The notes under the pieces are model-generated. The model was given only the letters and a program-made list of their open reading frames with translations. It did no database searches and was not told the DNA's origin. A stretch of 64,000 nucleotides of DNA from Candidatus Woesearchaeota archaeon (lineage in GTDB: Archaea > Nanobdellota > Nanobdellia > Woesearchaeales > GW2011-AR4), in contig JACPMR010000015.1 in the NCBI GenBank assembly GCA_016185945.1, positions 7,256 to 71,255 of the forward strand. The letters are read 5' to 3'. Every line of letters starts with the position of its first letter. The first letter of the stretch is position 1. The position numbers and the translations under genes are program-made. Positions 38,908 through 58,411 of the stretch are shown piece after piece.

Positions 38908-38984
38908 TGGTTTTGGGAAAAAATAGGTATATATAAAGGTTTTTGTGAATGTTGTTTTCAGTCCTTTAAAATAGTAAAAATTAT

Positions 38985-41944: not shown

Positions 41945-42150
41945 CAATCACTAACGAGAGCAATTTTTTGGGATTAAATTGCATTAAAACAATGAGATTA
42001 AATCAATCCCGAGAGCGTCCTTTATAAGTAATCGCGAATAAGGAAACCAGCTTTTGCTATCGCACTTTATCTTTAGCAATCAAGTGCAGATAGAAGTGGC
42101 TGCGGTTCCCTTATCACAAAAGCAGCTACAGGGAAGCCCTCGTGATTGAA
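41945..42150. repeat. GC-rich intergenic repeat element, copy G (possibly two nested/tandem units)
   Basis: CAATCACTAACGAGAGC ... second TIR-like CAATCCCGAGAGCG at about 41994 ... CAATCAAGTGCAGATAGAAGTGGCTGCGGTTCCCTTATCACAAAAGCAGCTACAGGGAAGCCCTCGTGATTGAA. Confidence 0.7.
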
Positions 42151-42186
42151 TTATAATTTTAATATAATTAGTATAATGATGTAATT

Positions 42187-44142
42187 TCAAACCATTAAAG
42201 GCACAAAAACAATCGCAACTATTGACATCAGCTTAATCAAGATATTCAAAGAAGGTCCTGCTGTGTCTTTGAAAGGATCTCCAACTGTGTCGCCGACAAC
42301 TGCTGATTTATGAGCTTCAGAGCCTTTGCCGCCAAGGTTGCCTGCCTCTATGTACTTTTTTGCATTGTCCCATGCACCGCCAGAATTAGCCATGAAAATT
42401 GCCAGAGAAAAACCAGTTACAATAGAGCCGACAAGCAGCCCTCCTAATGCCTCCAAGCCAAAAAAATAGCCAACTATAATAGGGGCAAAAATTGCCAACA
42501 AGGAAGGCATTACCATCTGCCTTAAAGCGCTTCTTGTGCTTATTGCTATGCATCTCTCATAGTCGGGCTTTGCCTTGCCTTTAGCAAGTCCTTTTATTTC
42601 CTTCCATTGTCTTCTTACTTCCTCAACAATCCCAGAAGCTGCTTTTCCCACTGCCTGCATTGCAAATGAACTGAACAGGAAAGGAAGCATCCCGCCAATG
42701 AACAAGCCAATTATTACATTTGGGCTAGAGATGCTCATTACTTGAATTTTTGTAATTTGAGTGAAGCTTGCGAATAATGCTAATGCAGTCAATGCAGCAC
42801 TTCCAATTGCAAAGCCCTTTCCAATAGCTGCGGTTGTGTTGCCGACTGCATCAAGCAATTCTGTTTTTTCTCTGACATCTTTGCCAACCTTTGCCATCTC
42901 TGAGATGCCTGCTGCATTATCAGCCACTGAGCCGTAAGTGTCGATAGCAAGTGTTATGCCCAAAGTTGAAAGCATTCCCACTCCTGCAATTGCTATGCCA
43001 TAAAGCCCTGCAAACTTGTAAGCAACTAAAACAGCAATTGAAACCACAAGAACAGGAATCAAGGTTGAGAACATTCCGACAGCAAGCCCTTGAATTACAT
43101 TTGTGCCTGCACCTGTCCTTGCTGCAGCTGCAATGCTTTTTGTCGGAGCATTTTTGTTTGATGTCATGTATTCTGTGAATAAGCCGATTACAACACCGAC
43201 AATCAAGCCCGCCAATGCTGCATAGAAAATTCCAATGTCAAGTTTCTGGTATTTGACAAGCAAAAATGAGAAAATTGCAGTCAATATAGTGCTTATGTAC
43301 AAGCCATTGTTTAATGCATTAAACAAATGCTTTTCATCCTTTGCCCTTACAAAAAATATTCCAATTAATGAAGCTAAAATCCCTAATGCAGCCAAAGCCA
43401 AAGGAAATATTACATGGCTAACTCCAAATAAAGCCACGCCTATAACCATTGCAGCTATTATGCTGTTGACATAACTTTCAAACAAGTCAGCACCCATGCC
43501 TGCGACATCACCTACATTGTCGCCCACATTATCGGCTATAACTGCTGGATTTCTTGGGTCGTCTTCTGGTATCCCTTTCTCGACCTTGCCAACCAAGTCA
43601 GCGCCAACATCCGCTGCCTTTGTATAAATTCCTCCCCCAACCCTTGCAAATAAAGCAATTGAAGATGCGCCAAAGCCAAATCCAAATATTATGTTTGGAT
43701 CGCCAAAAATTTGGTAAAGAATTGTAACTCCTAATAAGCCAATGCCTACAACGCTTAACCCCATGACAGAGCCAGAGTAAAAAGCAAGCCTTAAGCCCTC
43801 CCCTATATGCTTTTTAGTTGCCTCTGTTGTTCTTGAGTTTGCTCTTGTGGCAATCCTCATTCCAATATTTCCTGCCAATGCAGAAGAAAAGCCGCCAATT
43901 ATGAAAGATATTGCAAGCTTTTGCCCGTTTTCAAGAAAGAAAAACATTATTAATGCAACAATAAGTATGAAAATAACCAAAAATTCATATTCTTTTTTCA
44001 GAAAAATCAAGGCTCCTTTATGGATTGCCTCAGAAATTTCCTGCATTTTGGCAGTGCCTGCTGGCTTCTTTAATATGTAGAAAGCGAGAAATAAGGCAAC
44101 TAGCAATGATAAGATGCTTATGCTGATAATGAATTGAAGCAT
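42187..44142 (-). CDS. hppA: membrane-bound pyrophosphatase, K+-dependent type (H+ or Na+ pumping)
   Basis: 651 aa; GFGFGASS ... DVGADLVGK ... [16 protein letters not shown] ... [20 protein letters not shown] (Ala at the A/K position marks K+-dependence) ... DNAKK. Confidence 0.85.
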
Positions 44143-44542: not shown

Positions 44543-45160
44543 TCATGCCTTTGCCTTTATTCTTTTCATCCTGAAGATGTTCTCCCTTTCTATCTCCTCC
44601 AATCTTAGCTGGATAAATGCCCTTACTTTTTCCAAATTGGGGATTACTATAAATTCCAATGCATTTACCCTTCTTTTTGTTTTTTCTATCTCGCTGAGCA
44701 GTTTTCTCATCGAGGTTTCAACTTCTGCAGCAAGGATTATTTTTTCGACTACTTTTTCATAGGCTGCCGCCGCCTCGTCAACTGCAGATGAATTATAGAC
44801 GCCATAGCCCCTTTCCATGAATGCCTTTTCTATCTCAGAAGATTCTATTTTTGGTACTTTCACTCCCATAATGTTTTTTGTTTCAAGCTTTACTTCCGGC
44901 ATGTCCTTAATTGCCATTGCAATTGATTTGACTTTCAAGTCACCTTCCAGAGTTCTTGCAATGTTGATTTTTTCCAATGCAACTTTATATTCGTTGACTA
45001 ACTCTTCCCTCAAAGTTTTTGCTTTCTTCAGTATTTCAAAGAACTCAAGAATCAAGCCGTCTCTTTTCTTCTTCAGCAAGCTGTAGCCAGATTTGGCTAG
45101 CTTGATTTGCTTTTTTAGCTTCAATAATTCGCTTCTGGTTGGCTTAATGTCTTGGGGCAT
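44543..45160 (-). CDS. atpD: A-type ATP synthase subunit D
   Basis: 205 aa; MPQDIKPTRSELLKLKKQIKLAKSGYSLLKKKRDGL, canonical AtpD N-terminus; last gene of the ATPase operon. Confidence 0.8.
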   Translation of the reverse strand: MPQDIKPTRSELLKLKKQIKLAKSGYSLLKKKRDGLILEFFEILKKAKTLREELVNEYKVALEKINIARTLEGDLKVKSIAMAIKDMPEVKLETKNIMGVKVPKIESSEIEKAFMERGYGVYNSSAVDEAAAAYEKVVEKIILAAEVETSMRKLLSEIEKTKRRVNALEFIVIPNLEKVRAFIQLRLEEIERENIFRMKRIKAKA

Positions 45161-45162
45161 TT

Positions 45163-45912
45163 TTATAAAAATTTCTTCAATAAATCAATTTCATTATGTG
45201 TATTATGTACCTCAAACCTTCTCAAATCAAAATAGCCATTGTGATGCGGAGTGTTTATCATAATTCCTCCAACCAATGCTATTTTTCCATTAAAATGATG
45301 TTTTAGGCTTTCTATAATTTTCATCATTGCTTCATCAACTAGCATGTAATTAACTTCAACTAATTCTTTGATATGATTTTGGGAAGAAATAATTCTATAA
45401 GCATGGGACAGCATCATTTTTTCAACTGAGTACTGCTCCATATCAAGAGCATCTTCAACTGGCTCATATTTCTTGCCGTTTTTCATTGACTCCTTATATT
45501 TGTTCAAAAACGAGATTGCTGCACCGCAAGCTGTTGATTCATGAAATTGATTTTCCCTTAGAACTTTTCCTAGTTCTCCTTTTGGTGAAATTCCTACATG
45601 AGGGCCATAAAGTATCACAAAATTAACTTCAGATTGGTTATTTGGTGCATGATGCGAAAATGCAGCAAAGCCTGTTTTTCCTCTGAATGGATATCCTGTC
45701 AAACCTCCCAATGGAAATTGATGCTCTCCATAATATGATTTGAAACTTGTTACATCTCTGTTTAACTCATCAGGGCAAGTTGAAAATCCAAATAAAGTAT
45801 TTTTTGGAGTGAATTGATGGGTTTTCATTAAAGTGTCTACAACTTCAATAGTCAATTTGTGCCCTTCAATTGCTTTTGGAAAATGCTTCAATAAAGTTTC
45901 CGTCATTATCAT
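45163..45912 (-). CDS. LCIB/DUF1445-like protein with a beta-carbonic-anhydrase-like Cys-His-Cys site (candidate)
   Basis: 249 aa; Cys46 (FSTCPDELNRD), His105 (YGPHVGIS), Cys129 (HESTACGAA); the spacing (about 59 and 24 residues) matches my recollection of the zinc ligands of LCIB-family beta-CA-fold proteins; sits between atpB/proteolipid-2 and atpD. Confidence 0.35.
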   Translation of the reverse strand: MIMTETLLKHFPKAIEGHKLTIEVVDTLMKTHQFTPKNTLFGFSTCPDELNRDVTSFKSYYGEHQFPLGGLTGYPFRGKTGFAAFSHHAPNNQSEVNFVILYGPHVGISPKGELGKVLRENQFHESTACGAAISFLNKYKESMKNGKKYEPVEDALDMEQYSVEKMMLSHAYRIISSQNHIKELVEVNYMLVDEAMMKIIESLKHHFNGKIALVGGIMINTPHHNGYFDLRRFEVHNTHNEIDLLKKFL

Positions 45913-45965
45913 TTTTTACAAAATATTAATTTGATTTTTTATTGGTCAATAATAAGTTCTAAAAC

Positions 45966-46137
45966 CATCAAGCAACCCTTTTTCTTCCAGATAGTGATAT
46001 GGGTGTCCCGCAGTAACAATTGCACTTGATTGCTTTGCTTTATAGTGCAACATTCAAAAGCGGTTTACTTTCAACGGCAAAGTCCGTTGACACCTTGTGG
46101 GCATAAAGCCACATTTACAAAAGTCGCTCTTGATTTG
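45966..46137. repeat. GC-rich intergenic repeat element, copy I
   Basis: CATCAAGCAACCC ... GATATGGGTGTCCCGCAGTAAC ... CAACGGCAAAGTCCGTTGACACCTTGTG (shared with copy K) ... AAAAGTCGCTCTTGATTTG (matches the copy A end AAAAGTCGCTCTCGGGATTG). Confidence 0.65.
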
Positions 46138-46255
46138 TTAGATTTTTATTAATTATTTTTTAATTAAATTATTTAATTTGTAATGAAATTATTCTTGTCA
46201 ATTCGTATTCTGGAAATATTACTAAAGTTACTCCCTTGTTTAAACAATCTTCTAC

Positions 46256-46507
46256 TTATATTCCGCCAGCCAAGTTCAATATCAATATGGCTATTACCAG
46301 CCCAAATATCACCAATGTTTCTGGTATTACGGTAAGGATTAACGCCTTACCAAACATCTCTTCCTTTTCAGCAGCTGCGCCTACAGCTGCAGCCCCTATC
46401 GTGCTTTCAGCTATTGCTGCTCCGATAGCACTTAAGCCTATGGCAATACCAGCCCCTATTGCTATTAAACCTGTTTCTATTGCCATTTTTTGCTCCGTTA
46501 TAAACAT
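46256..46507 (-). CDS. atpK: A-type ATP synthase proteolipid (c/K subunit), second paralog
   Basis: 83 aa, two TM helices, ALILTVIPETLVIFGLVIAILIL with the conserved ion-binding Glu; paralog of 52285..52512. Confidence 0.7.
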   Translation of the reverse strand: MFITEQKMAIETGLIAIGAGIAIGLSAIGAAIAESTIGAAAVGAAAEKEEMFGKALILTVIPETLVIFGLVIAILILNLAGGI

Positions 46508-46522
46508 AAAATTGTTCCGTTT

Positions 46523-47893
46523 TTACTTTATCTCCTTGTAATATTTCTTCCTCAATTCTGGGCTTATTCTTGTCAGTTCACTCTCTGGCAGCAATCCGAG
46601 TAGTTTCCAGCCCAAGTCAAGGGTTTCTGCAATGCTCCTTTCTTCATCCCTTCTTTGCCTTACAAACTTGTCCTCAAACTCGGCAGCTAATTTTAAAAAT
46701 TTTTTATCTCTTTCGCTCAATGCCTCTTCGCCAACAATCGCAACTAATCCGCGTAAATCCCTGCCTTCTGCATAAGCAGCATAAAGCTGGTCACTTACTT
46801 GCTTGTGGTCTTCTCTTGTTCTTGTTGGCCCAATGCCCAAATTCATTAACCTTGAAAGTGAAGGCAATACATCAATGCAAGGGTAAATTCCTTTCCTGTG
46901 CAGTTCTCTCAACAAAACAATTTGCCCTTCTGTAATATAGCCAGTCAAGTCAGGAATTGGGTGAGTAATGTCGTCTCCAACCATTGTTAAGATTGGAATT
47001 TGGGTAATGCTTCCTTTCTTTCCTTTGATTACTCCAGCCCTTTCATAAATTGTTGCCAAGTCAGTGTACATATAACCAGGGTAGCCCCTTCTCCCCGGGA
47101 TTTCTTCACGAGCAGCGCCAATTTCGCGAAGCGATTCGCAATAGTTAGTAATGTCTGTAAGAATGACAAGAACATGAGCGTCATGCTCGAATGCAAAATA
47201 CTCTGCGCAGGTCAAGGCCATTCTTGGTGTGACAAGACGCTCAACAGCCGGATCATTTGCAAGATTGAGGAAAACAACGCTTCTTTCAATTGCGCCTGTC
47301 TGCTGGAAATCGTTAATGAAGTACTGCGCTTCCTCGTTTGTTATGCCCATTGCAGCGAAAATAACGACAAAGTTTTCCTGCCTACCGACAACTTTTGCCT
47401 GGCGAGCAATCTGCAAAGCAATTTCATTATGAGGCAAGCCAGAGCCTGAAAACAAAGGCAGTTTCTGCCCCCTGACAAGGGTATTCATTGCATCTATTGT
47501 TGACAATCCGGTCTGTATGAAGTCATGCGGAGAAGCTCTTGCAAAGGGGTTTATTGCAGCGCCAATTATGTCTAATTTCTTTTCCGGTATTATTTCCGGG
47601 CCGCCATCAATCGGCTTGCCAGAGCCGCTTAAGACACGTCCAAGCATGTCATTTGAAACACTCAACTTTAAAGTGTCTCCCAAAAACTTGACTCTTGTAT
47701 CAATATCTATTCCAGCAGTTCCCTCAAACACCTGAACAACTACAATATCGTCGCTAGTATCAAGGACTTGCCCATTTTTTATTTCTCCATTAGGCAGAGC
47801 AATCTTAACAATATCGGCATATCCAATTGGCTCTGTCTTCTCTACAAAAATCAAAGGGCCTGCAACTCTTGTTATGGTTTTGTATTCCTTCAT
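46523..47893 (-). CDS. atpB: A-type ATP synthase subunit B
   Basis: 456 aa; [12 protein letters not shown] ... [16 protein letters not shown] ... canonical regulatory-subunit motifs. Confidence 0.9.
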
Positions 47894-48612
47894 GCTCTCA
47901 CTCTTAAAGTAAGTTCTAAAAAGTTGGTTAAAATTTTTTTTCTATTACGGCCATATTCTTCTTTTATGTTATTGAAATCTTCCCTTAAAGAATCTGCATT
48001 AACAGACTTCAAATCAGGGTCTTTTAGTATCCACTCATCAAGCAGAGAGCCGGTTAATTCCAAATGCCCTTGAAACCCATAAGCACTTCCTCCAACTTTT
48101 ATAACTTGGTTTTTGCAATATTTTCCAGTTGCCAATAACGACATACCATGCCCTAGTTTTACAGTTTCGCCATGTAAGTGGAATATTCTCATGGGCGATT
48201 TAATTCCTTTAAAGATTTGGTCATTTTTGCCTTCGTCTGTTAACTCCATTTCAAAATAATTTCCTTCAGGATCCCTCCATCCAATTTCTTTTATGAAATT
48301 TTTGTGAACCTCACCACCCATAGCCTTTACTAATGTTTGTGCACCCAAACAAATCCCTAAATAGGGCAGTCCAAAATTAACTGCCTCCCTGATTCTTCTA
48401 ATTTCATTTTTCATTTTGAGTGTGCTGTCATTTGCACTATCCGGACCACCCAAAACAATCAGTGACATATAATCAGTAGGGTCTGGAAAAATTTGCCCTT
48501 TGCTTAAGTCGAATATATCATAAGGGATATCGTTTTCCTTTAAGATAGCCTCTATAAATCCAGGGCCTTCCCTGTCAATATTTTTTACAATCAAAACTTT
48601 TTTTCCATTCAA
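47890..48612 (-). CDS. class I glutamine amidotransferase (GATase1-like, stand-alone), inserted between atpA and atpB
   Basis: 240 aa; nucleophile elbow GICLGAQ, C-terminal FQGHLE (His/Glu of the triad); start and stop codons overlap atpA and atpB. Confidence 0.75.
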
Positions 48613-50333
48613 ACCTTCAACTCCTTTTCCATCTGGAGTGTTATTTCCTCAAGCAATTTTTCATAGTCTTTGGCGAATTTGACTTCGCTCAGCCTGTCTT
48701 TTGATTTTGTTGCAAGTATCTGATGAACTCTAACTCCCCCGTCCATTGCTCTATTGCCAAGTTTTGAAAAATGAGAGATTGCCTTCATAATCCTGTATGT
48801 TTTTTTCAAGTCACAGTAAGTGTCGATTTCGTGGAATGCATTCTGCTGCAATAAGACTTCTCTGATTAATCTCGCAACCTGCAAAACCAATTGTTGCCTT
48901 TCAGGCAAAGCATCTGAGCCGACAAGTTGGACAATCTCAAGCAGTTTTTCCTCTTCCTGCAAAATGCTCATCATCTCTCCAACCAAAACATGCCAGTCAC
49001 CTGCAATATGCTTTGCATACCATGGCTGTAATGTTCCCAAATACAATGAATAAGATGTGAGCCAATTTATTGACGGAAAATGCCTTCTTTGAGCAAGTTT
49101 TGCATCAAGAGCCCAGAAGCATTTTGTAACTCTTAAAGTGCTTTGTGTGACTGGCTCTGAAAAGTCGCCGCCAGGAGGTGAAACCGCTCCGATAATGCTG
49201 ACACTTCCTTCTTTCTTTGTTCCAAGAGTGATTACTCTGCCTGCACGTTCATAGAATTGCGCCAATCTTGTGGATAAATAAGCAGGATAGCCCTCCTCGC
49301 CAGGCATTTCCTCTAATCTTGATGAAATTTCCCTCATTGCTTCTGCCCATCTTGATGTTGAGTCAGCCATCAATGCAACTGAATACCCCATATCCCTGAA
49401 GTATTCTGCAATTGTAACTCCTGTATATACACTTGCTTCTCTTGCTGCAACCGGCATGTTGCTTGTGTTTGCAATAAGAACGGTTCTGTTCATCAATGGC
49501 TTACCGCTTCTTGGGTCTATCAGTTCAGGAAACTCTGTAAGAACTTCTACCATTTCATTTCCTCTTTCGCCGCAGCCGACATAAACTATGATATCTGCGT
49601 CAGACCATTTTGCAAGCTGTTGCTGTGAAACCGTCTTTCCAGCTCCAAACGGTCCAGGAATCGCTGCTACGCCTCCTTTTGCCAGTGGGAATAAAGAATC
49701 AAAAATTCTTTGCCCTGTAATCAATGGGAATTCTGGCTTCAGCTTTGAACTCACTGGACGGGCAATTCTTACAGGCCAATTATGCTTTAGGCGAAGCTCA
49801 AATCCATTGTCGAGCTTTCCAATGACGTCGTTGACTGTGAATTTTCCAGATTTAATCTCAATAATCTTTCCTTTTTGGTTTGGTGCCACCATAACTTTAT
49901 GCATAACGCCCGGGTTTTCTTCAATTTCGCCAATAATCTGTCCTGCATTAACTGAGTCGCCATTTTTTACAACTGCCTTGAAATCCCATTTCTTTGATTG
50001 GTCAAGTCCAGGAGCATCAACGCCTCTTTTGATGAAATCCCCCATCTGCTTAATCAAGACAGGCAAAGGCCTTTGGATTCCATCATAAATGCCACCAAGC
50101 ATTCCTGGGCCAAGCTCAACCTTCAACGGCTCGCCTGTGTTTACAACTGGCTCGCCTGGCTTGATTCCAGAAGTGTCCTCATAAACCTGAATGATTGCCT
50201 TTTCCCCTTCAATCTGTATGACTTCACCCATCAAATTTTCATTACCAACTCGGCATACATCATACATTCTCGGCTTTATGCCTTTGGCTACAACAACAGG
50301 GCCTGCAATCCTGTATAAAATTCCTTTGTCCAT
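48609..50333 (-). CDS. atpA: A-type ATP synthase catalytic subunit A
   Basis: 574 aa from [14 protein letters not shown]; Walker [23 protein letters not shown]; no intein-sized insertion. Confidence 0.9.
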
Positions 50334-50334
50334 T

Positions 50335-50634
50335 TTATCTCCACAAATCAACCCCTATTGATTTTTTTATTAACCTTTTAAGGCTGTCCTGCTCAGTTTT
50401 TGTTGATACAGGAATGAAAACAGGGTCAACAGATGCCTCTATTTCAAGCCTTTCATGCATGTCAAGAGCATCCATTATTTTTTCATCAACAACCACAATT
50501 CCTATGTCTTTCCTATTTTTCATATGCTTCAATTCATTATAGTAATTGCCAGTCAATTCTATGGTGTCCTTTATGCCTGCTAACTGAAAACCAACCACGA
50601 ATTCGCTGCCTCCGACAACTGCGATTTTTACCAT
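50335..50634 (-). CDS. atpF: A-type ATP synthase subunit F
   Basis: 99 aa; [21 protein letters not shown] typical of AtpF. Confidence 0.75.
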
Positions 50635-50635
50635 C

Positions 50636-51733
50636 TTAATAAACCAATTGACTTTCGATAAATTCTTCGCTTAGCCCAAGCTGTTTGCCTTTAACAATCA
50701 CCTTCAAATTTCTGACTTCGATATCTTTTGCAAACATATAGCCAAGGATAACATCAACCGTTAATGGATGCTGGTGCGTAAATAAAATTAATTGCTTCAG
50801 CAAGTATTTGTAAAGTTCTGTCTCAAGCACTATCAATGAGTTGCTTTTCTTGAATTCCTCAATGCCTTTTGCAACCAAACTGCCGTATTCAGTTTTACCC
50901 AATGCCTTTGAAAGTTCGTCTAGATTATCAACATCCGCCAAGGATGTGATTTTCGAGTCTCTTAAATAATCACCCGTTGGAATAATAAAATTCTTTACAA
51001 CGTCTTTGCCCAGCTTTGCCTTTTTCATCCTCAGCAATGTTAACAGGTTCAATACCTCAACTTCTTTAAGCAAGAAGTTTTTGAATAATGCTTCTTCTTT
51101 CGGAAGAATTTTTGAAAATTGAATCAAATGACTGTAATAATATTTGTCAAACGCATTTTCTACACTCACTAGATTATTCTTTTCGCGAAAGTCCTTTAGG
51201 GCGTCTTGTAACAATGAAAAATCCACAATTCCATTGCCTTTTAAAATTTCTTCAATAGAGTCCTTTTTCAAAAGGTTTGTCAGAAAATCGTAGCTCAATG
51301 TGCCTGCAGCTGTTATGGAACTTAAGATAATCTTTTCACTTGCATTTGTAAATTTTCCCCTCAGTATGGTTTTGATATCCTCGATATCCTTTCTTTTTAT
51401 ATACTCCTTAACAAGCAATGCCAGCTCCTCGGAGGATATTCTTATCAATTTCTTAAATGACCCAGAAAGATTTCTGTTCAATGCAAGCTCCAACAAATCC
51501 GCTCCCGAGTATTCCCTGGCTAATTCATTGATTTCTTTTTTGTAATGTGATTCCTGAAGAAATTTTGCAATTTCGCTGAAGCTCATCTTGAGCATTTTCA
51601 AGTAGTCGTCCCTTCTAAAAAGCAAAGCCCTCATTACAACAGTCCTTACATAAGTGTAAGGATAAAAGCCAAGCCTTATCTTCCTCCTCAGTTTTTGTCC
51701 TTCAGCCAGTTTTGATTTTAACATTTTAACCAA
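50636..51733 (-). CDS. atpC: A-type ATP synthase subunit C
   Basis: 365 aa helical protein between atpE and atpF; N-terminal YPYTYVRTVVMRALLF as in AhaC/subunit d. Confidence 0.7.
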   Translation of the reverse strand: MVKMLKSKLAEGQKLRRKIRLGFYPYTYVRTVVMRALLFRRDDYLKMLKMSFSEIAKFLQESHYKKEINELAREYSGADLLELALNRNLSGSFKKLIRISSEELALLVKEYIKRKDIEDIKTILRGKFTNASEKIILSSITAAGTLSYDFLTNLLKKDSIEEILKGNGIVDFSLLQDALKDFREKNNLVSVENAFDKYYYSHLIQFSKILPKEEALFKNFLLKEVEVLNLLTLLRMKKAKLGKDVVKNFIIPTGDYLRDSKITSLADVDNLDELSKALGKTEYGSLVAKGIEEFKKSNSLIVLETELYKYLLKQLILFTHQHPLTVDVILGYMFAKDIEVRNLKVIVKGKQLGLSEEFIESQLVY

Positions 51734-52271
51734 GTAATATGCTGCTTATATGCTGCAATTCTTTGTCTTTTACATTCTGAAGCAAAACCTCAAAGCTGTA
51801 ATCCACTCTTATTGTTTTGTCCTTGTTCTCTGCTATCAGGCCGCCAATAATATCGACAGGCTCGGCATTAAGTCCCTTAAAGAACTTCGTGTCCCTTTTG
51901 TTGCAGTAAAAATACTCTGCCTCGATGTCGTTTTTTGCTTTTTCAAGCAATTTTTTAGCGTACTGCTCTCTCTTTTTGTCGTCCAAGCTTTCAAGCCTTC
52001 TATTAGCTTCATCAAAAACTTCATCAACAGCTTGCTTCTTGACGTCAAGAATCATTTTTTTGTTAGTGAGTTCTGCTGAGATTGTTTCCTGTCTTTTAAG
52101 TACTTCAATCATTTTTTTTGTTTCTGCTTCGCTTTTTTCCCTCATTTCCTCTATTTTCTTCTCAGCTTCCCTCAGCACCCGGTTAGCTTCCTTTCTAGCT
52201 CCGGCTATCAAAGCCACTGACTCTTCTTCAGCATGCTTAATAATTTCTTCCTTTATTTTTTCAATTCCCAT
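51726..52271 (-). CDS. atpE: A-type ATP synthase subunit E
   Basis: 181 aa; N-terminal charged coiled coil and C-terminal globular domain; operon position after the proteolipid. Confidence 0.7.
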   Translation of the reverse strand: MGIEKIKEEIIKHAEEESVALIAGARKEANRVLREAEKKIEEMREKSEAETKKMIEVLKRQETISAELTNKKMILDVKKQAVDEVFDEANRRLESLDDKKREQYAKKLLEKAKNDIEAEYFYCNKRDTKFFKGLNAEPVDIIGGLIAENKDKTIRVDYSFEVLLQNVKDKELQHISSILLG

Positions 52272-52284
52272 ATTTTGCTCAAGC

Positions 52285-52512
52285 TTAATACTTAAGCGTC
52301 AGTATCAATATTGACACGACTAGCCCGAAAATGACAATTGTTTCTGGTATTACAGTAAGGATTAATCCCTTACCGAAGAGCTCTTCCTTTTCGGCCATTG
52401 CACCGATTGCAGCAACGCCTATGTTCTTTTCAGCCCATGCTGCCGCAAATGCGGAACTAGCAAGCGCTATTGCAGAGCTCAATGCCAAAAGCCCACTACT
52501 CAATTCAACCAT
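52285..52512 (-). CDS. atpK: A-type ATP synthase proteolipid subunit K (c)
   Basis: 75 aa, two TM helices, GLILTVIPETIVIFGLV with the conserved Glu. Confidence 0.8.
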   Translation of the reverse strand: MVELSSGLLALSSAIALASSAFAAAWAEKNIGVAAIGAMAEKEELFGKGLILTVIPETIVIFGLVVSILILTLKY

Positions 52513-52526
52513 TTTTCTTTACCTCC

Positions 52527-54395
52527 TCAATTTTGTTTTTTGATTCCAAATGGCACATATTTGCTTGCGCCACCATGGAAAAATTTTGAAAAAAACTCAA
52601 CATAATGCAATCTTAATGAATGCAAAAAGCTTCCCAACAAACCCAAGCCAATGTTGATTATGTGTCCAATTAAAAGTATTATTACTCCAAATAATATCAT
52701 GACAGGGCTGCCGTGAAAGAACTGCTCGCTTTGGTGGTTTATCACCATGGCTAATTGCACTGAGCTTACTCCTATTGCCATAAGTCGCGCATATGATAGG
52801 GTATTGCTAAATAAACTTGGGATTTCTATTGGCCCTCTAACACCCTCTCCTTTGTAAAGCATTAAGATGATTATTATAAACAGTAATATAATACCTATAA
52901 CAAGATTTAACAGGTTAATTAATGAATTTATATATAAATACAAAAGCAACACGAGTCCAATTTGTAATATAAACCAACTTCCTTTTGCATAAATCGCATG
53001 CACAAGTCCGTGGGATTTAAACTCGTTTATAAATCCTAGCGTAAATCCAATGTTAAGGTGCACTACCCCTATGCCAATTGCTATGTAAAGCAAAGGCATT
53101 AACTCGTGTGACCTGCTCAGCAAATGGGGTATTTCTCTTCCAAACAATTCCTCAAAACCAAAGAACTCGCCAAAAATTAAGCCAAAAATCATTGTTGAAA
53201 GTGACGCCAGAATAAAGATATTGAAGAAATGCCTTGCTTTTGGAATCATTTTTTTAAGCACCAAAGCGATAATCAATGTCACAAGTCCATAGCCAAAATC
53301 ACCAAGCATGAATCCAAATAGGATTGGAAATGTCAAAAACAGGAAGAATGTGGGATCAAGTTCTTTGTATAAGGGCATTGTGTAAAGATTCATAAGGACC
53401 TCGAATGAATTTATTAGCTTTGGATTTTTAAGCTTTATTGGAACTTTGTCGTGCTTCTTGGCCGGCTCGAAATGCACTAAAATTTTGTTTTTTGTCGCTG
53501 TTTTTAATCTTTCTATAGATTTGCTTAAATCGTCAGTTGGAATCCATCCTTTGATGAGAAAACTGCTGGGTGTTGATGCAAACATCAAAGGAGCTTCTGC
53601 TTTTTCCAGCTCTATCCTTAAGAATTTGTCTGCTGCCAGCAAAAAGCTTTCGTATTCATTGCTTAATTTTTCAAGATTTTTTTTGACGCTTTCTATTTTA
53701 TTGTGAAGCTTTGAGATTTCCTCTTCAATTTTACTCAAATTGCTTAGCGCAGTTCCTTTGAAATCGCTTATATGTATAAAGTTTAGAGGCAAAAATCCTG
53801 CTTTTTGCAAAAACTGGATTATTTGCTCTTTCTTTTTAACATCAACAAATAAAACTATGAAAATGCCTTTTTGTGTTGCGCTGTCAAACAGCATGAATTC
53901 ATTTGTTATTTTTGACAATTCTTCTCTTAGTGTCAAGATGTATTTTGACTTGATGTATCCGATAAAATAAGCCAGTGATTTATAAGAGATAAAATATTCA
54001 AGAGGAACATTGACATCTTTTAGAATTTCCAGCTCTTGCTTTACAGCGTCTTTTTTTGCCAATTGCTCTTCTATACTCTTCAGTCCCTCTAAATTTTTGG
54101 TTACCTCATCGCTGAGCTTTTTCGTTGTTGATTCTATCTCCAAAAGACTCTTTTTAAGCTTGAATGTGGCTTCTTCCTGCTTAATGTTTAATGTAGAGAT
54201 TAACGCTCTTATTTTGACTAGAATTTCAGAAAGTTTGCTTGCACTCTCCAATGGCTTGCCTATGTCTGCTAATTTGCTTTTGGAGTGCTCAACGATGTGG
54301 AGTATTTTCATATCATGAAGTTCTTTAACAGCAGTCTCTTGCACATTGTTTGGGCCTGCTATTATTACCCTGCTCATCCGGTAAGGAGCCAGCAT
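52527..54395 (-). CDS. atpI: A-type ATP synthase subunit I (a-subunit homolog)
   Basis: 622 aa; about 330-aa N-terminal soluble coiled-coil domain then 7-8 TM helices with the conserved Arg-containing helix (LSYARLMAIG). Confidence 0.8.
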   Translation of the reverse strand: MLAPYRMSRVIIAGPNNVQETAVKELHDMKILHIVEHSKSKLADIGKPLESASKLSEILVKIRALISTLNIKQEEATFKLKKSLLEIESTTKKLSDEVTKNLEGLKSIEEQLAKKDAVKQELEILKDVNVPLEYFISYKSLAYFIGYIKSKYILTLREELSKITNEFMLFDSATQKGIFIVLFVDVKKKEQIIQFLQKAGFLPLNFIHISDFKGTALSNLSKIEEEISKLHNKIESVKKNLEKLSNEYESFLLAADKFLRIELEKAEAPLMFASTPSSFLIKGWIPTDDLSKSIERLKTATKNKILVHFEPAKKHDKVPIKLKNPKLINSFEVLMNLYTMPLYKELDPTFFLFLTFPILFGFMLGDFGYGLVTLIIALVLKKMIPKARHFFNIFILASLSTMIFGLIFGEFFGFEELFGREIPHLLSRSHELMPLLYIAIGIGVVHLNIGFTLGFINEFKSHGLVHAIYAKGSWFILQIGLVLLLYLYINSLINLLNLVIGIILLFIIIILMLYKGEGVRGPIEIPSLFSNTLSYARLMAIGVSSVQLAMVINHQSEQFFHGSPVMILFGVIILLIGHIINIGLGLLGSFLHSLRLHYVEFFSKFFHGGASKYVPFGIKKQN

Positions 54396-54396
54396 T

Positions 54397-54738
54397 TTAT
54401 ATAGTTTCCTCGAACTTTTTCATTACAAACTCGACAGCTTTTGCTTTGTTTTTTTCTGTCTTTGCCTTTAACTGCTTTGCTTGCGCTTTGCCTTCTGCCA
54501 TTTTTTCTTCTGCAACAAGTTTTAGCTTTTCTCTGAAATCCGCCAGCTTTTTTTCCTGCCCTTTTCCAATTTCCCCCTCTTTTTCTGTAATTAATCTTGA
54601 AGAATTTCTAGATGCTTCTCGCAAGATTGACTCGCTTTCCCTTTTGGCTCTTTCTATTATTTCGTCTGCCTTTTTCTCTGCTTCCTTGATTTCCAGCAAA
54701 ATCTCTGCTTCCTGTGAATTTTTTGATTCGGCTTCCAT
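54397..54738 (-). CDS. atpH: A-type ATP synthase subunit H
   Basis: 113 aa highly charged coiled coil (EAEKKADEIIERAKRE ...), first gene of the operon. Confidence 0.6.
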   Translation of the reverse strand: MEAESKNSQEAEILLEIKEAEKKADEIIERAKRESESILREASRNSSRLITEKEGEIGKGQEKKLADFREKLKLVAEEKMAEGKAQAKQLKAKTEKNKAKAVEFVMKKFEETI

Positions 54739-55020: not shown

Positions 55021-55893
55021 TTATCTTTCTATCTCTTTTGTGATAGCCCAGTCTGTGATTACCTCTGCTATAGTTGTCAATGAATTCCTTATCCTTTCCA
55101 TATCATAATACTTTATGTCTTTAACCTCAAAATTCCCAATTTTGCTGACTTTTTTTATGAATTGCAGTGCTGTTTTGTGGTTTAGGGTGTTAGTATTCTC
55201 TATTATGCTTTGAAGCTGATCAATCACATCATAAATCTTATTCAGAAATTCCAGTTCCTTGTTGCTTATCCTGATTAAATGGTCAACCGTCCTTTCCAAA
55301 TCTTTGGAGATTAAAGAGATATAATACAAATCAATTGTTTTAAGCTTTGTTACTCTTTCAAAAGCCAATGAGCTAATAATTGATTTCTCAATAATCATCT
55401 TAATTCTGTCAATCTCGTCTTCGTACCTTTCAATAAGCTCCTTGTCATAGCTCTTCTGCATTACTGTTATCATGTTCTTTATCTTCTTTACCATTGTCTT
55501 GAGCAATGACTCTGGATCGCTAATGGAAACAGCGCCATGGCATGTTATCTGCTTCTTGTCAATTTCGACTGATTCCAGGCTGATTAATCGCTTCTGGTTG
55601 AGAAGTTTTGTGAAGTCCATTTCCTTTTCAAGGTTAATTTCAAATGAGCTTGCAGGATTGACATAGCAAGCAACTACGAGCTTATGTATAATGTCTTGGT
55701 CGTCTTCTGAAATGCTGAATTTCAAATGTTTTAGTTTTTTTTCAATAATGTGCGGAGAAACAATTAAAGTGCCGTCGCTGCTCTGCTCTATGCTTACCTT
55801 TGACTTTGAGCCTATTTTATGCTCTCTGCACCACAATGTAGGCAAATAGAGGTAATGCATGTCGCCTGTCTTCTGCACATTTCTAACTTCCAT
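55021..55893 (-). CDS. regulator with N-terminal AbrB/SpoVT-like domain and C-terminal PhoU-like helical repeats
   Basis: MEVRNVQKTGDMHYLYLPTLWCREHKIG (swapped-hairpin-like) followed by about 200 aa of helical repeats as in archaeal PhoU-type phosphate-uptake regulators. Confidence 0.4.
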   Translation of the reverse strand: MEVRNVQKTGDMHYLYLPTLWCREHKIGSKSKVSIEQSSDGTLIVSPHIIEKKLKHLKFSISEDDQDIIHKLVVACYVNPASSFEINLEKEMDFTKLLNQKRLISLESVEIDKKQITCHGAVSISDPESLLKTMVKKIKNMITVMQKSYDKELIERYEDEIDRIKMIIEKSIISSLAFERVTKLKTIDLYYISLISKDLERTVDHLIRISNKELEFLNKIYDVIDQLQSIIENTNTLNHKTALQFIKKVSKIGNFEVKDIKYYDMERIRNSLTTIAEVITDWAITKEIER

Positions 55894-56624: not shown

Positions 56625-56975
56625 TTTATAAATTTAAAAATAAATATAAATCTAACTATATGATACCCATTATCTGCTTCAGCGATGTGGGTACCCCTCA
56701 TATAACTTGTTCCACCTAATGATGAACAATAAAGTGCATTAAGCACACTGCCTCGTACTGATGAGGAACCCATGGAGTAGTGCTATCTAGCATAGCATGA
56801 AAAATTGTATCCGAAGCGAGAGAGCAGAAAAAATTATTTGAAATCGAAGTACATTCTTAAATTACAAGAAACATTGCCAACCACAAAAATCTTTTAGCAA
56901 ATTGTTGTGGTTGGCAAGATAGCAAACCACAGCTATTATACCCATCTATTTCTGTGGTTTGCTATATAAGTAAAT

Positions 56976-58388
56976 TTATTTCACAAACCTCTTCACAATC
57001 TCCATCACTTTCTTCCCATCAACCTTTCCCCTGTACTTTGCCATTATCAAGCCCATATAGGCGCTTTGCGTCAGATTTGGTTTTTCTTCAATTATTTTTT
57101 TTATTTCTTTTTCCAAATCTTTTTCAGAAACAGATTCAAAATGCTTTATATCGATTTTCTCTCCAAGCGCCTTTTTTTCCAATAAATCCATTATGGCTTC
57201 TTTTGCTATTTTTCCTTCAGCAAAATATGAAAGCACTTCCTCAAAATCTTTAACATCTAATTTTCCTTTTATTTCAGTGGGTGTATTTACTATAGTCCTG
57301 GCTATAAGCAAAGGCTCTAATTTTCCCAATTTTTTTACAAGAGATTCAAATTCTGTGTCAATCAAATCTTTTCCTACACCTTTAGGCAATCCGTATTTTT
57401 TCTCGAATTCTTCAACTTTTTCTGTTAATAATTTTGGTAATGATTTTCTTAGTCTCTCAATATATGTTTTGTCAACTCTTACTGGCAAAACATCTGTTTC
57501 AGGGTAAAGACGAGCAGCACCCGGCAATGGCCTAAGAAAAGCTGCTGTGAAGTTTGGCTCTGCCTTTCTTACCTCTTTTTCAAGCTTCTTGCCGTGATTT
57601 ATTGCCTCAAGCTGCCTTTTCACTTCATATTCTATCACTTTAGGAATGCTTCTCAAGTCCTGAAAGCCCTTTATCTCTGTTCGTGCTCCGCCTGATATTG
57701 AAATATTGACATCCTGCCTTATTGTACCAAGCCCTCTTTTTACTCCTTCAACGCTTCGCAGAATCATGCCGATATGAGCAGCAACCTCTTTTGCATGTTC
57801 AGGACTTTTTATGTCGGTGCTTGTTGCAATTTCTATTAGAGGAATGCCTAATCTGTCAAGCCTGTACCTTACAAAGTCTTTGTCTTCTTCTAATTTCTGT
57901 GCTGCCTCTTCTTCTAGGCAGATTGTTGGAATTCTAACATTACCAAGAGAAGTTTCAATAAAACCATTGATTGCAACCAATACAGTCCTCTGAAAGCCTG
58001 ATACGTTACTGCCATCAACAACAGTCTTGCGCATTACTTGAATTTCGTCGACTATTTTTGCGTTTAACAATAAAGCAACTTTCAATGTTGTTTCAAGGGC
58101 TTGCGTGTTCAATTTATGTGGCGGCTCTTCGTCTGTCTCTACAAGGCAAACATCCTCGGAATTTGCCTCATAGATTATCTTCTTTTTCTTCATCATCTCA
58201 AATTCCGCTGCAACATCTATGTCGCCTGTTTCTCCAGCTACCGCCTTCAATTTTCTCTCGAATTTTATGTCTGGTTCTTTAGTAGAATTCAAAGTAAGGC
58301 AATTGCAGAATAGTTTTTTGCCTTCTAATTGCTGGTGGATTTCTAAACCACATTTAAATCCAATTTCTTCATAGTTTATTTTTTCCAT
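56976..58388 (-). CDS. gatE: glutamyl-tRNA(Gln) amidotransferase subunit E
   Basis: MEKINYEEIGFKCGLEIHQQLEGKKLFCNC: GatB/GatE catalytic N-terminus; C-terminal YqeY-like helical domain; 470 aa, shorter than typical GatE. Confidence 0.8.
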   Translation of the reverse strand: MEKINYEEIGFKCGLEIHQQLEGKKLFCNCLTLNSTKEPDIKFERKLKAVAGETGDIDVAAEFEMMKKKKIIYEANSEDVCLVETDEEPPHKLNTQALETTLKVALLLNAKIVDEIQVMRKTVVDGSNVSGFQRTVLVAINGFIETSLGNVRIPTICLEEEAAQKLEEDKDFVRYRLDRLGIPLIEIATSTDIKSPEHAKEVAAHIGMILRSVEGVKRGLGTIRQDVNISISGGARTEIKGFQDLRSIPKVIEYEVKRQLEAINHGKKLEKEVRKAEPNFTAAFLRPLPGAARLYPETDVLPVRVDKTYIERLRKSLPKLLTEKVEEFEKKYGLPKGVGKDLIDTEFESLVKKLGKLEPLLIARTIVNTPTEIKGKLDVKDFEEVLSYFAEGKIAKEAIMDLLEKKALGEKIDIKHFESVSEKDLEKEIKKIIEEKPNLTQSAYMGLIMAKYRGKVDGKKVMEIVKRFVK

Positions 58389-58411
58389 TTTTTATTATGT
58401 GTTATCATAGA

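What the first reader, a model, noticed from the sequence alone, without database searches (positions are those of the whole stretch)
44543..54738. A-type ATP synthase operon interrupted by a glutamine amidotransferase, a second proteolipid gene and an LCIB/beta-carbonic-anhydrase-like gene
- The gene order is atpH-I-K-E-C-F-A-[GATase1]-B-[proteolipid 2]-[repeat]-[LCIB-like]-D.
- The class I glutamine amidotransferase carries GICLGAQ and FQGHLE, and its start and stop overlap atpA and atpB, so it is co-translated with the catalytic subunits.
- A second c/K-subunit paralog (83 aa, also with the IPET ion-binding Glu) lies between atpB and atpD.
- Between atpB and atpD there is also a 249-aa protein whose Cys46/His105/Cys129 spacing matches what I recall for LCIB-family beta-CA-fold zinc sites.
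- Extra genes inside this otherwise strongly conserved operon are unusual.
- They might link ATPase expression to nitrogen or bicarbonate/pH metabolism, or represent rotor-ring heterogeneity.
Basis: partly seen in the sequence, partly recalled or inferred. Interest (0 to 1): 0.55.

Follow-up and report, generated by a model that had tools for sequence, protein, structure and literature searches.

The report
Archaeal ATPase operon with embedded enzymes
The rotary ATPase operon of a tiny Woesearchaeota (DPANN) archaeon really does carry a carbonic anhydrase, a glutamine amidotransferase and a second rotor-ring gene. The first two sit at the same places in related genomes, which suggests, but does not prove, that this lineage makes its ion pump together with enzymes that handle protons, bicarbonate and ammonia.

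Summary
On the minus strand lies a complete A-type ATPase operon, atpH-I-K-E-C-F-A-B-D, from a Candidatus Woesearchaeota MAG, with three extra genes.

1. An LCIB/theta-type carbonic anhydrase sits between atpB and atpD (PF18599, E 4e-53). It keeps all zinc and catalytic residues, and its AlphaFold model matches solved LCIB structures at TM 0.85.
2. A stand-alone class I glutamine amidotransferase (GATase) overlaps atpA and atpB by 4 nt on each side.
3. A second c-subunit gene follows atpB.

The three inserts differ in age. B-LCIB-D occurs in 7 of 11 related operons, including the deepest branches, where LCIB identity falls to 42%. GATase-atpB occurs in 5 of the 9 operons where that slot is visible, and those GATases form one clade. 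The second c gene is unique to this genome. It is followed by a decayed copy of the atpB 3' end and by a copy of a repeat that recurs in intergenic regions of this window.

In relatives the same two junctions also hold toxin-antitoxin modules, an ion channel and unknown genes, so they are permissive insertion sites. Co-expression is shown by the sequence. A role in proton, bicarbonate and ammonia balance is inferred, not demonstrated. I found no published description.

The parts
54397..54738 (-). atpH (A-type ATPase subunit H, 113 aa)
   Evidence: Weak matches, both below the curated cut-offs: TIGR02926 AhaH (25.6 bits against a cut-off of 48.5) and V-ATPase_G_2. Orthologues occupy the same position in L007, L010 and L086.
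52527..54395 (-). atpI (membrane stator subunit I/a, 622 aa)
   Evidence: PF01496 V_ATPase_I, 2.9e-28.
52285..52512 (-). atpK, the canonical c/K proteolipid (75 aa, VIPET)
   Evidence: PF00137, 9.5e-16. 85% identical to the c subunit of L007.
51726..52271 (-). atpE
   Evidence: PF01991, 1e-14.
50636..51733 (-). atpC
   Evidence: PF01992, 1.3e-67.
50335..50634 (-). atpF
   Evidence: PF01990, 3.6e-13.
48609..50351 (-). atpA (catalytic subunit A)
   Evidence: TIGR01043, 9e-282, plus Pfam domains.
47890..48612 (-). Stand-alone class I glutamine amidotransferase (240 aa). It overlaps the atpA stop and the atpB start by 4 nt each.
   Evidence: PF00117, 3.5e-18. The Cys88/His183/Glu185 triad is invariant in the in-operon clade. 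Its junctions are shown. It lies directly upstream of atpB in L163, L165, the P0082 contig and L175.
46523..47893 (-). atpB (subunit B)
   Evidence: TIGR01041, 9e-245.
46256..46486 (-). Second c/K proteolipid gene (76 aa from the second ATG; the open frame extends to 46507)
   Evidence: PF00137, 3.5e-18. It is 61% identical to atpK of this operon but 83-84% identical to the canonical c subunits of L163 and L165. dN/dS against those is about 0.05-0.09.
46180..46255 (-). Decayed duplicate of the atpB 3' end, lying just after the stop of the second c gene
   Evidence: One frame of the remnant reads ...FPEYELTRIISLQIK*, against [18 protein letters not shown] at the atpB C-terminus. It matches the atpB ends of L163 at 36/45 nt, L010 at 34/39 nt, and the window's own at 20/25 nt ([D19], 41, 80).
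46133..46193 (.). AT-rich low-complexity tandem repeats
   Evidence: TRF periods of 11-20 nt, scores 38-64.
45932..46076 (-). One (degenerate) copy of a ~145-nt repeat found in intergenic regions of the window
   Evidence: nhmmer E 1.7e-30. There are seven strong and about three weak copies in the window, in both orientations. Two hairpins show some covariation. No Rfam family matches.
45163..45912 (-). LCIB/theta-type (beta-CA-fold) carbonic anhydrase homologue (249 aa). Its stop lies 2 nt before the atpD start.
   Evidence: PF18599, 4.1e-53. C46, D48, R52, H88, H105 and C129 are conserved and align with PtLCIB4. The AF2 model has pLDDT 84.7, and Foldseek gives TM 0.85 to 6kfs and 0.84 (query-normalised; 0.88 target-normalised) to 5b5y.
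44543..45160 (-). atpD (central stalk subunit D)
   Evidence: PF01813, 3.3e-55; NF001542, 2e-88.
55021..55893 (-). PhoU-domain protein (290 aa) upstream of the operon, syntenic in relatives
   Evidence: Weak PhoU match. Orthologues (61-79% identity) lie directly upstream of atpH in L007, L010 and L086.
42187..44142 (-). Membrane pyrophosphatase downstream of the operon, syntenic in relatives
   Evidence: PF03030, 7.8e-273. It follows atpD in L007, L010, L163, L165 and the P0082 contig.

Best explanation
This is the A1AO ATPase operon of a Woesearchaeota (DPANN) archaeon. It has accumulated three inserts of different age at two permissive junctions.

**The three inserts**
1. A cytoplasmic LCIB/theta-type zinc carbonic anhydrase sits between atpB and atpD. 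It is old, apparently ancestral to the whole clade sampled, and its stop lies 1-4 nt from the atpD start.
2. A stand-alone class I glutamine amidotransferase, probably acting as a glutaminase, sits directly upstream of atpB. It was acquired once in a subclade. In this genome it overlaps both catalytic-subunit genes, so it is translated from the same mRNA.
3. A second single-hairpin c-subunit gene was inserted at the 3' end of atpB in this genome's lineage only. It left a decayed duplicate of that end behind. The gene is intact and has evolved under purifying selection.

**What is shown.** The anatomy, the family membership, the intact catalytic residues, the conserved positions, and the coupling of start and stop codons.

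**What is inferred.** The cell makes a CO2/HCO3-/H+ equilibrating enzyme and an NH3-releasing enzyme in step with its ion pump and the neighbouring membrane pyrophosphatases. In a fermentative cell without a respiratory chain, the pump probably hydrolyses ATP to expel H+ or Na+. The two enzymes would then buffer or supply cytoplasmic protons for the pump. They would be soluble partners in ion and pH homeostasis, not ATPase subunits. The second c subunit would be built into, or would replace, the c ring.
For: **Family membership**
- LCIB: Pfam 180 bits. C46, D48, H88, H105 and C129 are invariant across 30 homologues, and R52 as well across the 20 archaeal ones.
- The same residues align with PtLCIB4. 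C46, D48, H105 and C129 correspond to the Cys/His/Cys zinc ligands and the conserved Asp of beta-CAs (PMC5876011); P47 and H88 fall at the positions of the deposited S47R and H88A mutants.
- The AF2 model and Foldseek give TM 0.85 to 6kfs and 0.84 to 5b5y, followed by classical beta-CAs.
- PtLCIB3 and PtLCIB4 are described as constitutively active (PMC9614477, citing Jin 2016).
- GATase: the catalytic triad is invariant.

**Conservation of position**
- B-LCIB-D is found in the window, L007, L010, L086, L087, L083 and L084, with LCIB identity of 42-70%.
- The in-operon copies span the whole archaeal LCIB clade. The one copy found elsewhere (L004) nests inside them.
- GATase-atpB is found in the window, L163, L165, the P0082 contig and L175. 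These GATases form one NJ clade, apart from homologues encoded elsewhere.

**Coupling.** Overlaps of 4 nt or spacers of 1-4 nt occur at A|GATase, GATase|B and LCIB|D in the window, L163, L165, L007 and L010.

**Theme of the neighbourhood.** One or two membrane pyrophosphatases follow the operon in the window and in all five relatives where the downstream region is visible. In L163 the B|D slot holds an ion channel.

**Second c gene.** Identities are, dN/dS, and the duplicated atpB 3' end.
Against: - No experiment or expression data exists. The physiological link rests on gene order alone.
- The same junctions hold selfish or unrelated genes in relatives. These include three HepT/MNT pairs (L175), AbiEi/AbiEii plus a AAA ATPase and an unknown ORF (L084), a 408-aa unknown (L007), and 151-aa and 291-aa unknowns. 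Presence in the operon does not by itself imply function with the ATPase.
- LCIB works outside the operon in one close relative (L004/L012, next to acetyl-CoA synthetase).
- GATase homologues of 52-57% identity sit in unrelated contexts.
- Several relatives have lost one or the other gene from the operon, and only this genome has both inside it.
- CrLCIB and LCIC show no CA activity in vitro (PMC5876011), so activity cannot be assumed from residues alone.
- The direction in which the enzyme runs, and its coupling ion, are unknown.
Confidence: 0.5

Rival explanations
1. Hitch-hiking. The A|B and B|D junctions are simply tolerated insertion points in a constitutively expressed operon of a compact genome. 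On this view the carbonic anhydrase, the GATase and the other occupants only borrow its promoter and have no functional relation to the ATPase.
For: - The contents of both slots vary across 11 operons. Occupants include toxin-antitoxin modules, AbiE, an ion channel, and four different unknown ORFs.
- LCIB has relocated out of the operon in L004/L012.
- GATase homologues sit in unrelated contexts.
- Repeated losses have occurred.
- A dispersed repeat and a duplicated atpB end show that the region is recombinationally active.
Against: - LCIB has kept exactly the same position, tightly abutting atpD, while diverging to 42% identity. Over the same span atpD diverged to 64% and atpB to 79%.
- The GATase keeps its place immediately upstream of atpB across a whole clade. 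It overlaps the atpB start by 4 nt in the window and lies 1-2 nt from it in L163 and L165.
- Selfish modules are each seen in only one genome, whereas these two genes recur.
Confidence: 0.35
2. Physical accessory subunits. LCIB, the GATase, or both bind the A1 head or the central stalk. Together they would form an energy-coupled module, for example a vectorial CO2 hydration device analogous to the DAB or Cup complexes.
For: - Translational coupling to atpD, or to atpA and atpB, is typical of complex partners.
- The LCIB-atpD adjacency is long-conserved.
- The LCIB family is suspected of directional CO2 hydration in algae (PMC5876011).
- There is precedent for beta-CA-like proteins coupled to ion-translocating membrane partners (PMC13144422).
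Against: - Close relatives with more than 90% identical atpB lack the gene or encode it elsewhere. The ATPase therefore does not need it, and the protein does not need the ATPase locus.
- No fusion and no extra docking domain is seen. The protein is the bare LCIB domain.
- No interaction data exists.
Confidence: 0.08
3. Assembly or binning artefact. On this view the extra genes were joined to the operon by mis-assembly of a metagenome.
For: The source is a MAG, and a repeat element sits in the gap.
Against: - The same junctions occur in independent assemblies.
- Logan contigs L001-L003 carry the gap repeat and LCIB at 100% identity.
- A-GATase-B recurs in L164, L166 and two NCBI MAGs.
- B-LCIB-D recurs in NCBI, JGI and Logan contigs.
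- Overlapping start and stop codons cannot arise from chimeric joins.
Confidence: 0.02

Closest known systems
Canonical archaeal A1AO ATP synthase operon (ahaH-I-K-E-C-F-A-B-D, as in Methanosarcina mazei; from established knowledge)
   Same: All nine subunit genes are present, in the canonical order and on one strand, mostly with overlapping or near-abutting junctions.
   Different: Three additional ORFs lie between A|B and B|D, and a 343-nt gap containing a repeat element precedes LCIB-atpD.
LCIB / theta-carbonic anhydrase family (PtLCIB4 5b5y, 6kfs, CrLCIB/LCIC; Pfam PF18599)
   Same: The fold matches (TM 0.84-0.85, query-normalised). The Cys-His-Cys zinc ligands, the Asp-Arg pair and His88 are conserved, and the protein has the same single-domain size.
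   Different: The host is a non-photosynthetic DPANN archaeon with no CO2-concentrating context. The gene is embedded in an ATPase operon, and activity is untested. Bacterial relatives (Balneolaceae, Planctomycetota) have no atp genes nearby.
Carbonic anhydrases functionally tied to ion-translocating machines (DAB complex, PMC13144422; cyanobacterial CupA/B; CA II with V-ATPase in vertebrate acid-secreting cells, the last two from general knowledge)
   Same: A CO2/HCO3-/H+ equilibrating enzyme is genetically or functionally linked to a proton- or ion-moving membrane complex.
   Different: There is no evidence here of physical association or vectorial catalysis. The link is operon membership only.
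Stand-alone class I GATases of unknown function (PDB 3m3p, TM1158/1o1y; NCBIfam PRK06490 and PRK07053 types)
   Same: These are the best sequence matches (E 4e-21, 2e-20; 126 bits to PRK06490). They share the same ~240-aa single-domain architecture and the Cys-His-Glu triad.
   Different: All scores are far below the NCBIfam equivalog cut-offs. The protein is not GuaA subunit A (54.6 bits against 172). The position inside the atp operon is specific to one Woesearchaeota clade.
Rotary ATPases with more than one c-subunit gene (Acetobacterium woodii c1/c2/c3; eukaryotic V-ATPase c/c'/c''; from general knowledge)
   Same: Two proteolipid genes lie in one operon, which makes a mixed ring possible.
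   Different: Both are ordinary single-hairpin subunits that retain the carboxylate (VIPET). The second is not a duplicated or site-less form. It resembles the canonical c subunit of sister lineages.

Membership tests
LCIB / theta-type beta-CA-fold carbonic anhydrase (PF18599) | Matches the family HMM above the curated threshold | tested here: met
   180.4 bits against a cut-off of 25, E 4.1e-53, covering profile positions 8-222 of 223.
LCIB / theta-type beta-CA-fold carbonic anhydrase (PF18599) | Cys-His-Cys zinc ligands | tested here: met
   C46, H105 and C129 are invariant in the archaeal clade. They align to the equivalent Cys, His and Cys of PtLCIB4 and 6kfs. Metal binding itself was not tested.
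LCIB / theta-type beta-CA-fold carbonic anhydrase (PF18599) | Conserved Asp-Arg pair after the first Cys (CxDxxxR), and His88 | tested here: met
   D48, R52 and H88 are invariant in A2. They align with the SLCSDEVTR motif and the GH motif of PtLCIB4; P47 and H88 fall at the positions of the deposited S47R and H88A mutants.
LCIB / theta-type beta-CA-fold carbonic anhydrase (PF18599) | LCIB-type beta-CA fold | tested here: met
   The AF2 model has pLDDT 84.7 and pTM 0.86. Foldseek gives 6kfs E 8e-22 with TM 0.85, 5b5y with TM 0.84 (query-normalised) and 0.88 (target-normalised), then classical beta-CAs at TM ~0.4.
LCIB / theta-type beta-CA-fold carbonic anhydrase (PF18599) | Carbonic anhydrase activity | not testable with these tools
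   Some family members are active (PtLCIB3 and PtLCIB4, PMC9614477). Others are inactive in vitro (CrLCIB and LCIC, PMC5876011).
Class I glutamine amidotransferase (PF00117) | HMM match and the Cys-His-Glu catalytic triad | tested here: met
   66.4 bits against a cut-off of 22.8. C88 (GICLGAQ), H183 and E185 (QGHLE) are invariant in the in-operon clade, and the motifs GICLGAQ and GFQGHLE align to 3m3p.
GMP synthase subunit A (GuaAa) | Reaches the equivalog score of TIGR00888 or PRK00758 | tested here: not met
   54.6 bits against a cut-off of 172, and 46.6 against 198. It is therefore not filed as GuaA.
A-type (A1AO) ATP synthase operon | All nine subunits H, I, K, E, C, F, A, B, D present in one co-oriented cluster | tested here: met
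ATPase c/K proteolipid (PF00137), second copy | HMM match, two-helix hairpin, and the conserved helix-2 carboxylate | tested here: met
   66.1 bits against a cut-off of 24. The VIPET motif is identical to that of canonical c subunits. dN/dS is about 0.05-0.09.
ATPase c/K proteolipid, ion specificity | Complete Na+ motif (Q/E in helix 1 plus E-S/T in helix 2; F-type definition in PMC4320612) | tested here: inconclusive
   Both copies have E-T in helix 2 and a Glu in helix 1 (AEKN in one, AEST in the other). The structural equivalence of the helix-1 position was judged by eye only.
Physical subunit of the ATPase (for LCIB or the GATase) | Obligate co-occurrence with the complex, or a demonstrated interaction | tested here: not met
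   Close relatives lack one or both genes in the operon, and LCIB is encoded elsewhere in L004/L012. Interaction was not testable.

The most novel reading that the evidence does not exclude
The LCIB-type carbonic anhydrase, possibly with the amidotransferase, docks on the A-type ATPase. The assembly would be an energy-coupled CO2/HCO3-/H+ (and NH3) handling module in an archaeon. It would be a prokaryotic, non-photosynthetic setting in which the long-debated 'directional' action of LCIB-family proteins is tied to an ion pump and could be tested directly.
Probability: 0.08. Interest if true: 0.85.

Novelty: new variant of a known kind. Interest (0 to 1): 0.55.

Why it matters
**For the LCIB family.** These proteins are known from algal and diatom CO2-concentrating mechanisms, and what they do there is still argued over. 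Here is an archaeal branch with all catalytic residues. It has stayed wedged between two subunit genes of a rotary ATPase while diverging to about 40% identity. That gives a simple, non-photosynthetic system in which to ask what such a carbonic anhydrase does next to an ion pump.

**For DPANN energetics.** The energy metabolism of these archaea is poorly understood, including whether their ATPase makes or burns ATP. A conserved carbonic anhydrase, an amidotransferase and membrane pyrophosphatases around the operon point to ion and pH homeostasis as a working hypothesis.

**For operon evolution.** A supposedly rigid operon can have specific junctions that repeatedly accept genes, including toxin-antitoxin modules.

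**For annotation.** NCBIfam has no model for the LCIB protein. The two homologues that carry a source name are called 'hypothetical protein'.

Tried and rejected
- **Riboswitch or known RNA in the 343-nt gap.** Rfam gave nothing at gathering thresholds over the whole window, and nothing credible at E<=10 over the gap. The fold of the gap core is not exceptional (z -1.8). The conserved core turned out to be one degenerate copy of a dispersed repeat that occurs in both orientations. A cis-regulatory RNA specific to LCIB was therefore rejected.
- **Recent in-genome duplication of atpK as the origin of the second c gene.** Rejected. It is 61% identical to atpK but 83-84% identical to the c subunits of other lineages, with saturated dS.
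- **GATase as GMP synthase subunit A, or as a defence gene.** Rejected. The scores are far below the equivalog cut-offs, and there is no PADLOC hit.
- **The unknown slot occupants** (408 aa in L007, 151 aa in L163, 461 aa in L084, 291 aa in L175, 166 aa in L010). None has a Pfam, NCBIfam or PADLOC match.
- **Genome-collection scan with the LCIB alignment.** It mostly returned bacterial Balneolaceae and Planctomycetota homologues with no atp genes nearby. It added only two archaeal loci.
- **Viral-contig scan with the GATase alignment.** It found nothing.
- **Literature.** Searches combining Woesearchaeota or DPANN with ATP synthase, amidotransferase, carbonic anhydrase or LCIB found no description of this arrangement. 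Jin et al. 2016 (PMC5187666) is not held. The family-defining residues were therefore taken from PDB alignments, mutant names and reviews.
- **A GATase plus CA pair supplying NH3 and HCO3- to one carboxylating or carbamoylating enzyme.** Considered and set aside. The two genes co-occur in the operon only in this genome.

Full report
**1. What is there**

The region 44543-54738 carries, on the minus strand, a complete A-type ATPase operon with extra ORFs. The order is atpH, I, K, E, C, F, A, [240-aa ORF], B, [83/76-aa ORF], a 343-nt gap, [249-aa ORF], D.

Pfam and NCBIfam confirm all nine subunits. The three extra ORFs are:
- a class I glutamine amidotransferase (GATase; PF00117, 3.5e-18);
- a second ATP-synt_C proteolipid (3.5e-18);
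- an LCIB_C_CA protein (PF18599, 4.1e-53).

Exact-sequence look-ups place the window in a Candidatus Woesearchaeota MAG (NCBI proteins MBI2654427-40, contig 311 kb).

Junctions are tight. The GATase start overlaps the atpA stop by 4 nt (TTGA). Its stop overlaps the atpB ATG by 4 nt (ATGA). The LCIB stop is 2 nt from the atpD ATG. The only real gap is the 343 nt upstream of LCIB.

**2. The LCIB-like protein**

C46, D48, H88, H105 and C129 are invariant across 30 homologues. R52 is invariant as well across the 20 archaeal ones. A profile of the archaeal clade hits solved LCIB-family structures: 6kfs at 2.9e-52, 9w05 and 9vzj at about 1e-51, and PtLCIB4 (5b5y) at 5.8e-50.

The printed alignments put window C46-P47-D48...R52 on PtLCIB4 C-S47-D...R, H88 on the residue mutated in the H88A entry, H105 on the YGSHVG motif, and C129 on the ACCG motif.

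An AlphaFold2 model (pLDDT 84.7, pTM 0.86) superposes on 6kfs (TM 0.85) and on PtLCIB4 (TM 0.84, or 0.88 normalised to the target). CrLCIB and LCIC come next, then classical beta-CAs.

The protein has no N-terminal hydrophobic segment, so by direct reading it is cytoplasmic.

Family members differ in activity. PtLCIB3 and PtLCIB4 are described as constitutively active (PMC9614477), whereas CrLCIB and LCIC were inactive in vitro (PMC5876011). Activity here is likely but untested.

**3. The GATase**

The Cys-His-Glu triad (C88, H183, E185) is intact and invariant in close relatives. The best structural relatives are uncharacterised stand-alone GATases (3m3p, TM1158). The protein is not GuaA subunit A: it scores 54.6 bits against a cut-off of 172.

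**4. Related genomes**

I examined 11 independent operon instances.

| Operon instance | A\|B slot | B\|D slot |
|---|---|---|
| Window | GATase | second c gene, repeat, LCIB |
| L007 | 408-aa unknown | LCIB |
| L010 | nothing | LCIB |
| L086 | nothing | LCIB |
| L087 | nothing | LCIB |
| L083 | not visible | LCIB, followed by atpD |
| L084 | not visible | AbiEi/AbiEii (opposite strand), LCIB, then a 461-aa unknown and a AAA ATPase (opposite strand) |
| L163 | GATase | 151-aa unknown plus an Ion_trans channel |
| L165 | GATase | nothing |
| P0082 contig | GATase | nothing |
| L175/L176 | three HepT/MNT pairs, then GATase | 291-aa unknown follows atpB; atpD not seen on the contig |

- LCIB sits between atpB and atpD in 7 of the 11.
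- A GATase sits immediately upstream of atpB in 5 of the 9 where that slot is visible.
- In the MAG that carries L175/L176, the LCIB orthologue lies elsewhere, next to acetyl-CoA synthetase (L004/L012).
- The bacterial LCIB homologues in the loci retrieved (mainly Balneolaceae and Planctomycetota) have no atp genes nearby.
- GATase homologues of 52-57% identity lie in unrelated contexts in other Woesearchaeota, an Aenigmarchaeote and Methanolobus.

**5. Evolutionary reading**

These are neighbour-joining trees on few taxa, so the reading is indicative only.

- In the LCIB tree, the in-operon copies span the whole archaeal clade. The single out-of-operon copy nests inside them.
- In an atpB tree, the deepest branches (L087, L010) have LCIB but no GATase.
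- The in-operon GATases form one clade, separate from those encoded elsewhere.

The simplest history is as follows. LCIB entered the B|D junction early. The GATase entered the A|B junction later, once. Both were subsequently lost, replaced or relocated in some lineages. Only this genome retains both inside the operon.

**6. The second c subunit and the gap**

The second c gene most likely starts at the second ATG, giving 76 aa with a GGAG 8 nt upstream. It is 61% identical to this operon's atpK. It is 83-84% identical to the canonical c subunits of L163 and L165, while atpK is 85% identical to that of L007. It is therefore not a recent local duplicate.

dN/dS against its nearest relatives is about 0.05-0.09, with saturated dS. 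That is the same range as between canonical c genes, so the gene has evolved under purifying selection.

Immediately after its stop lies a decayed duplicate of the atpB 3' end. One frame reads FPEYELTRIISLQIK*, against [18 protein letters not shown] at the atpB C-terminus. It matches the atpB ends of L163 at 36/45 nt and of L010 at 34/39 nt. This is the footprint of an insertion at the end of atpB.

The rest of the gap contains AT-rich tandem repeats and one degenerate copy of a ~145-nt intergenic repeat. That repeat has seven strong and about three weak copies in the 64-kb window, in both orientations. It is absent from the related loci I hold. It has two hairpins with some compensatory changes, and no Rfam family matches it. 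In relatives, atpB is followed by LCIB within 3-44 nt. The second c gene and the repeat are therefore late additions.

**7. How it most likely works**

Shown:
- Two intact enzymes and a second rotor subunit are encoded inside the operon.
- The enzymes' start and stop codons are coupled to the A, B and D subunit genes.
- Their positions are conserved over considerable divergence.

Inferred:
- They are co-expressed with the pump.
- Their chemistry serves cytoplasmic proton and ion balance for an ATPase that, in a fermentative DPANN cell, probably pumps ions. The two reactions are CO2 + H2O <-> HCO3- + H+, and glutamine -> glutamate + NH3.
- The conserved neighbourhood fits this theme. It includes one or two membrane pyrophosphatases, and in L163 an ion channel occupies the B|D slot.

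I put about 0.5 on this explanation.

The main rival, at about 0.35, is that these junctions merely tolerate insertions and the genes hitch-hike on a strong operon. The toxin-antitoxin modules and unknown ORFs in the same slots, the relocation of LCIB, and the repeated losses all support it.

A physical accessory-subunit or vectorial-CA role is possible but unsupported (about 0.08). Mis-assembly is excluded by independent contigs with the same junctions.

**8. Novelty**

Each component belongs to a known family, and the operon is canonical apart from the inserts. What appears new is the LCIB-type carbonic anhydrase, and in a subclade the class I GATase, embedded in an A-type ATPase operon and conserved there. 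Six full-text searches found no description.

I rate it a new variant of a known kind, with moderate interest. The finding is real, conserved and testable, but its physiological meaning is not yet established.

Noticed in passing
window 1964-2126(-), 13084-13242(-), 23868-24052, 35037-35210(+), 36329-36490(+), 42015-42166(+), 45932-46076(-); weaker copies at 56641-56747, 63624-63751: A ~145-nt repeat recurs in intergenic regions of the window. It has conserved blocks (AAAGTAAACCGC, a GCACT...AGTGC hairpin, TGCGGGGCACCCAT...ATGGGTCGC) and some compensatory changes. Copies occur in both orientations. It is absent from the related loci I hold and matches no Rfam family. It could be a MITE-like element or a small-RNA family.
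   Followed up: partly
L177-L225 (IMG/VR contigs), e.g. L178 9629-11956, L179 9893-11110: 49 low-GC (29-34%) putative viral contigs encode distant LCIB-domain relatives (20-27% identity in most). They keep the Cys-x-Asp, His and Cys motifs (ICSDDVD, GGLAGYPF, PHIGIT, CGAV). In some the domain sits inside much larger ORFs. No atp genes are nearby.
   Followed up: no
L175 1216-7004; L084 898-2359 and 3246-6300: Relatives carry selfish modules inside the atp operon. L175 has an intein-containing atpA followed by three HepT/HEPN-MNT toxin-antitoxin pairs before GATase-atpB. L084 has an AbiEi/AbiEii pair, a 461-aa unknown and a DUF4143 AAA ATPase on the opposite strand around LCIB.
   Followed up: partly
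L007 7360-8586: A 408-aa ORF with no Pfam, NCBIfam or PADLOC match occupies the A|B slot. It abuts the atpA stop and overlaps the atpB start, exactly where the GATase sits in other genomes.
   Followed up: partly
window 36853-39006(-), 40267-41835(-), 42187-44142(-): Two membrane pyrophosphatases (717 and 651 aa) and a phosphoglycerate kinase lie just downstream of the operon. A PPase and a PGK follow atpD in the same order in L007, L010 and L165 and on the P0082 contig (and probably in L163, where the PGK gene runs off the locus); L007 also carries the second PPase. The PGK is unusually long (522 aa, with the Pfam match split in two stretches), as in L007. The L010 and L165 versions are about 395 aa.
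   Followed up: no
window 55021-55893(-): A 290-aa protein with a weak PhoU-domain match sits directly upstream of atpH. It is conserved in that position (61-79% identity) in L007, L010 and L086, so it is a candidate operon regulator.
   Followed up: no
L163 8109-9387: In a close relative the B|D slot holds a 151-aa unknown and a voltage-gated-type ion channel (Ion_trans, 4e-38) instead of LCIB.
   Followed up: partly
window 56976-60176(-): GatE and GatD (the archaeal Glu-tRNA(Gln) amidotransferase; GatD is an asparaginase-type glutaminase) lie upstream of the operon region. The genome therefore has a separate, unrelated glutamine-hydrolysing system nearby.
   Followed up: no
L004 378-3602: The topoisomerase VI B subunit in the related MAG carries an intein with a LAGLIDADG domain.
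   Followed up: no
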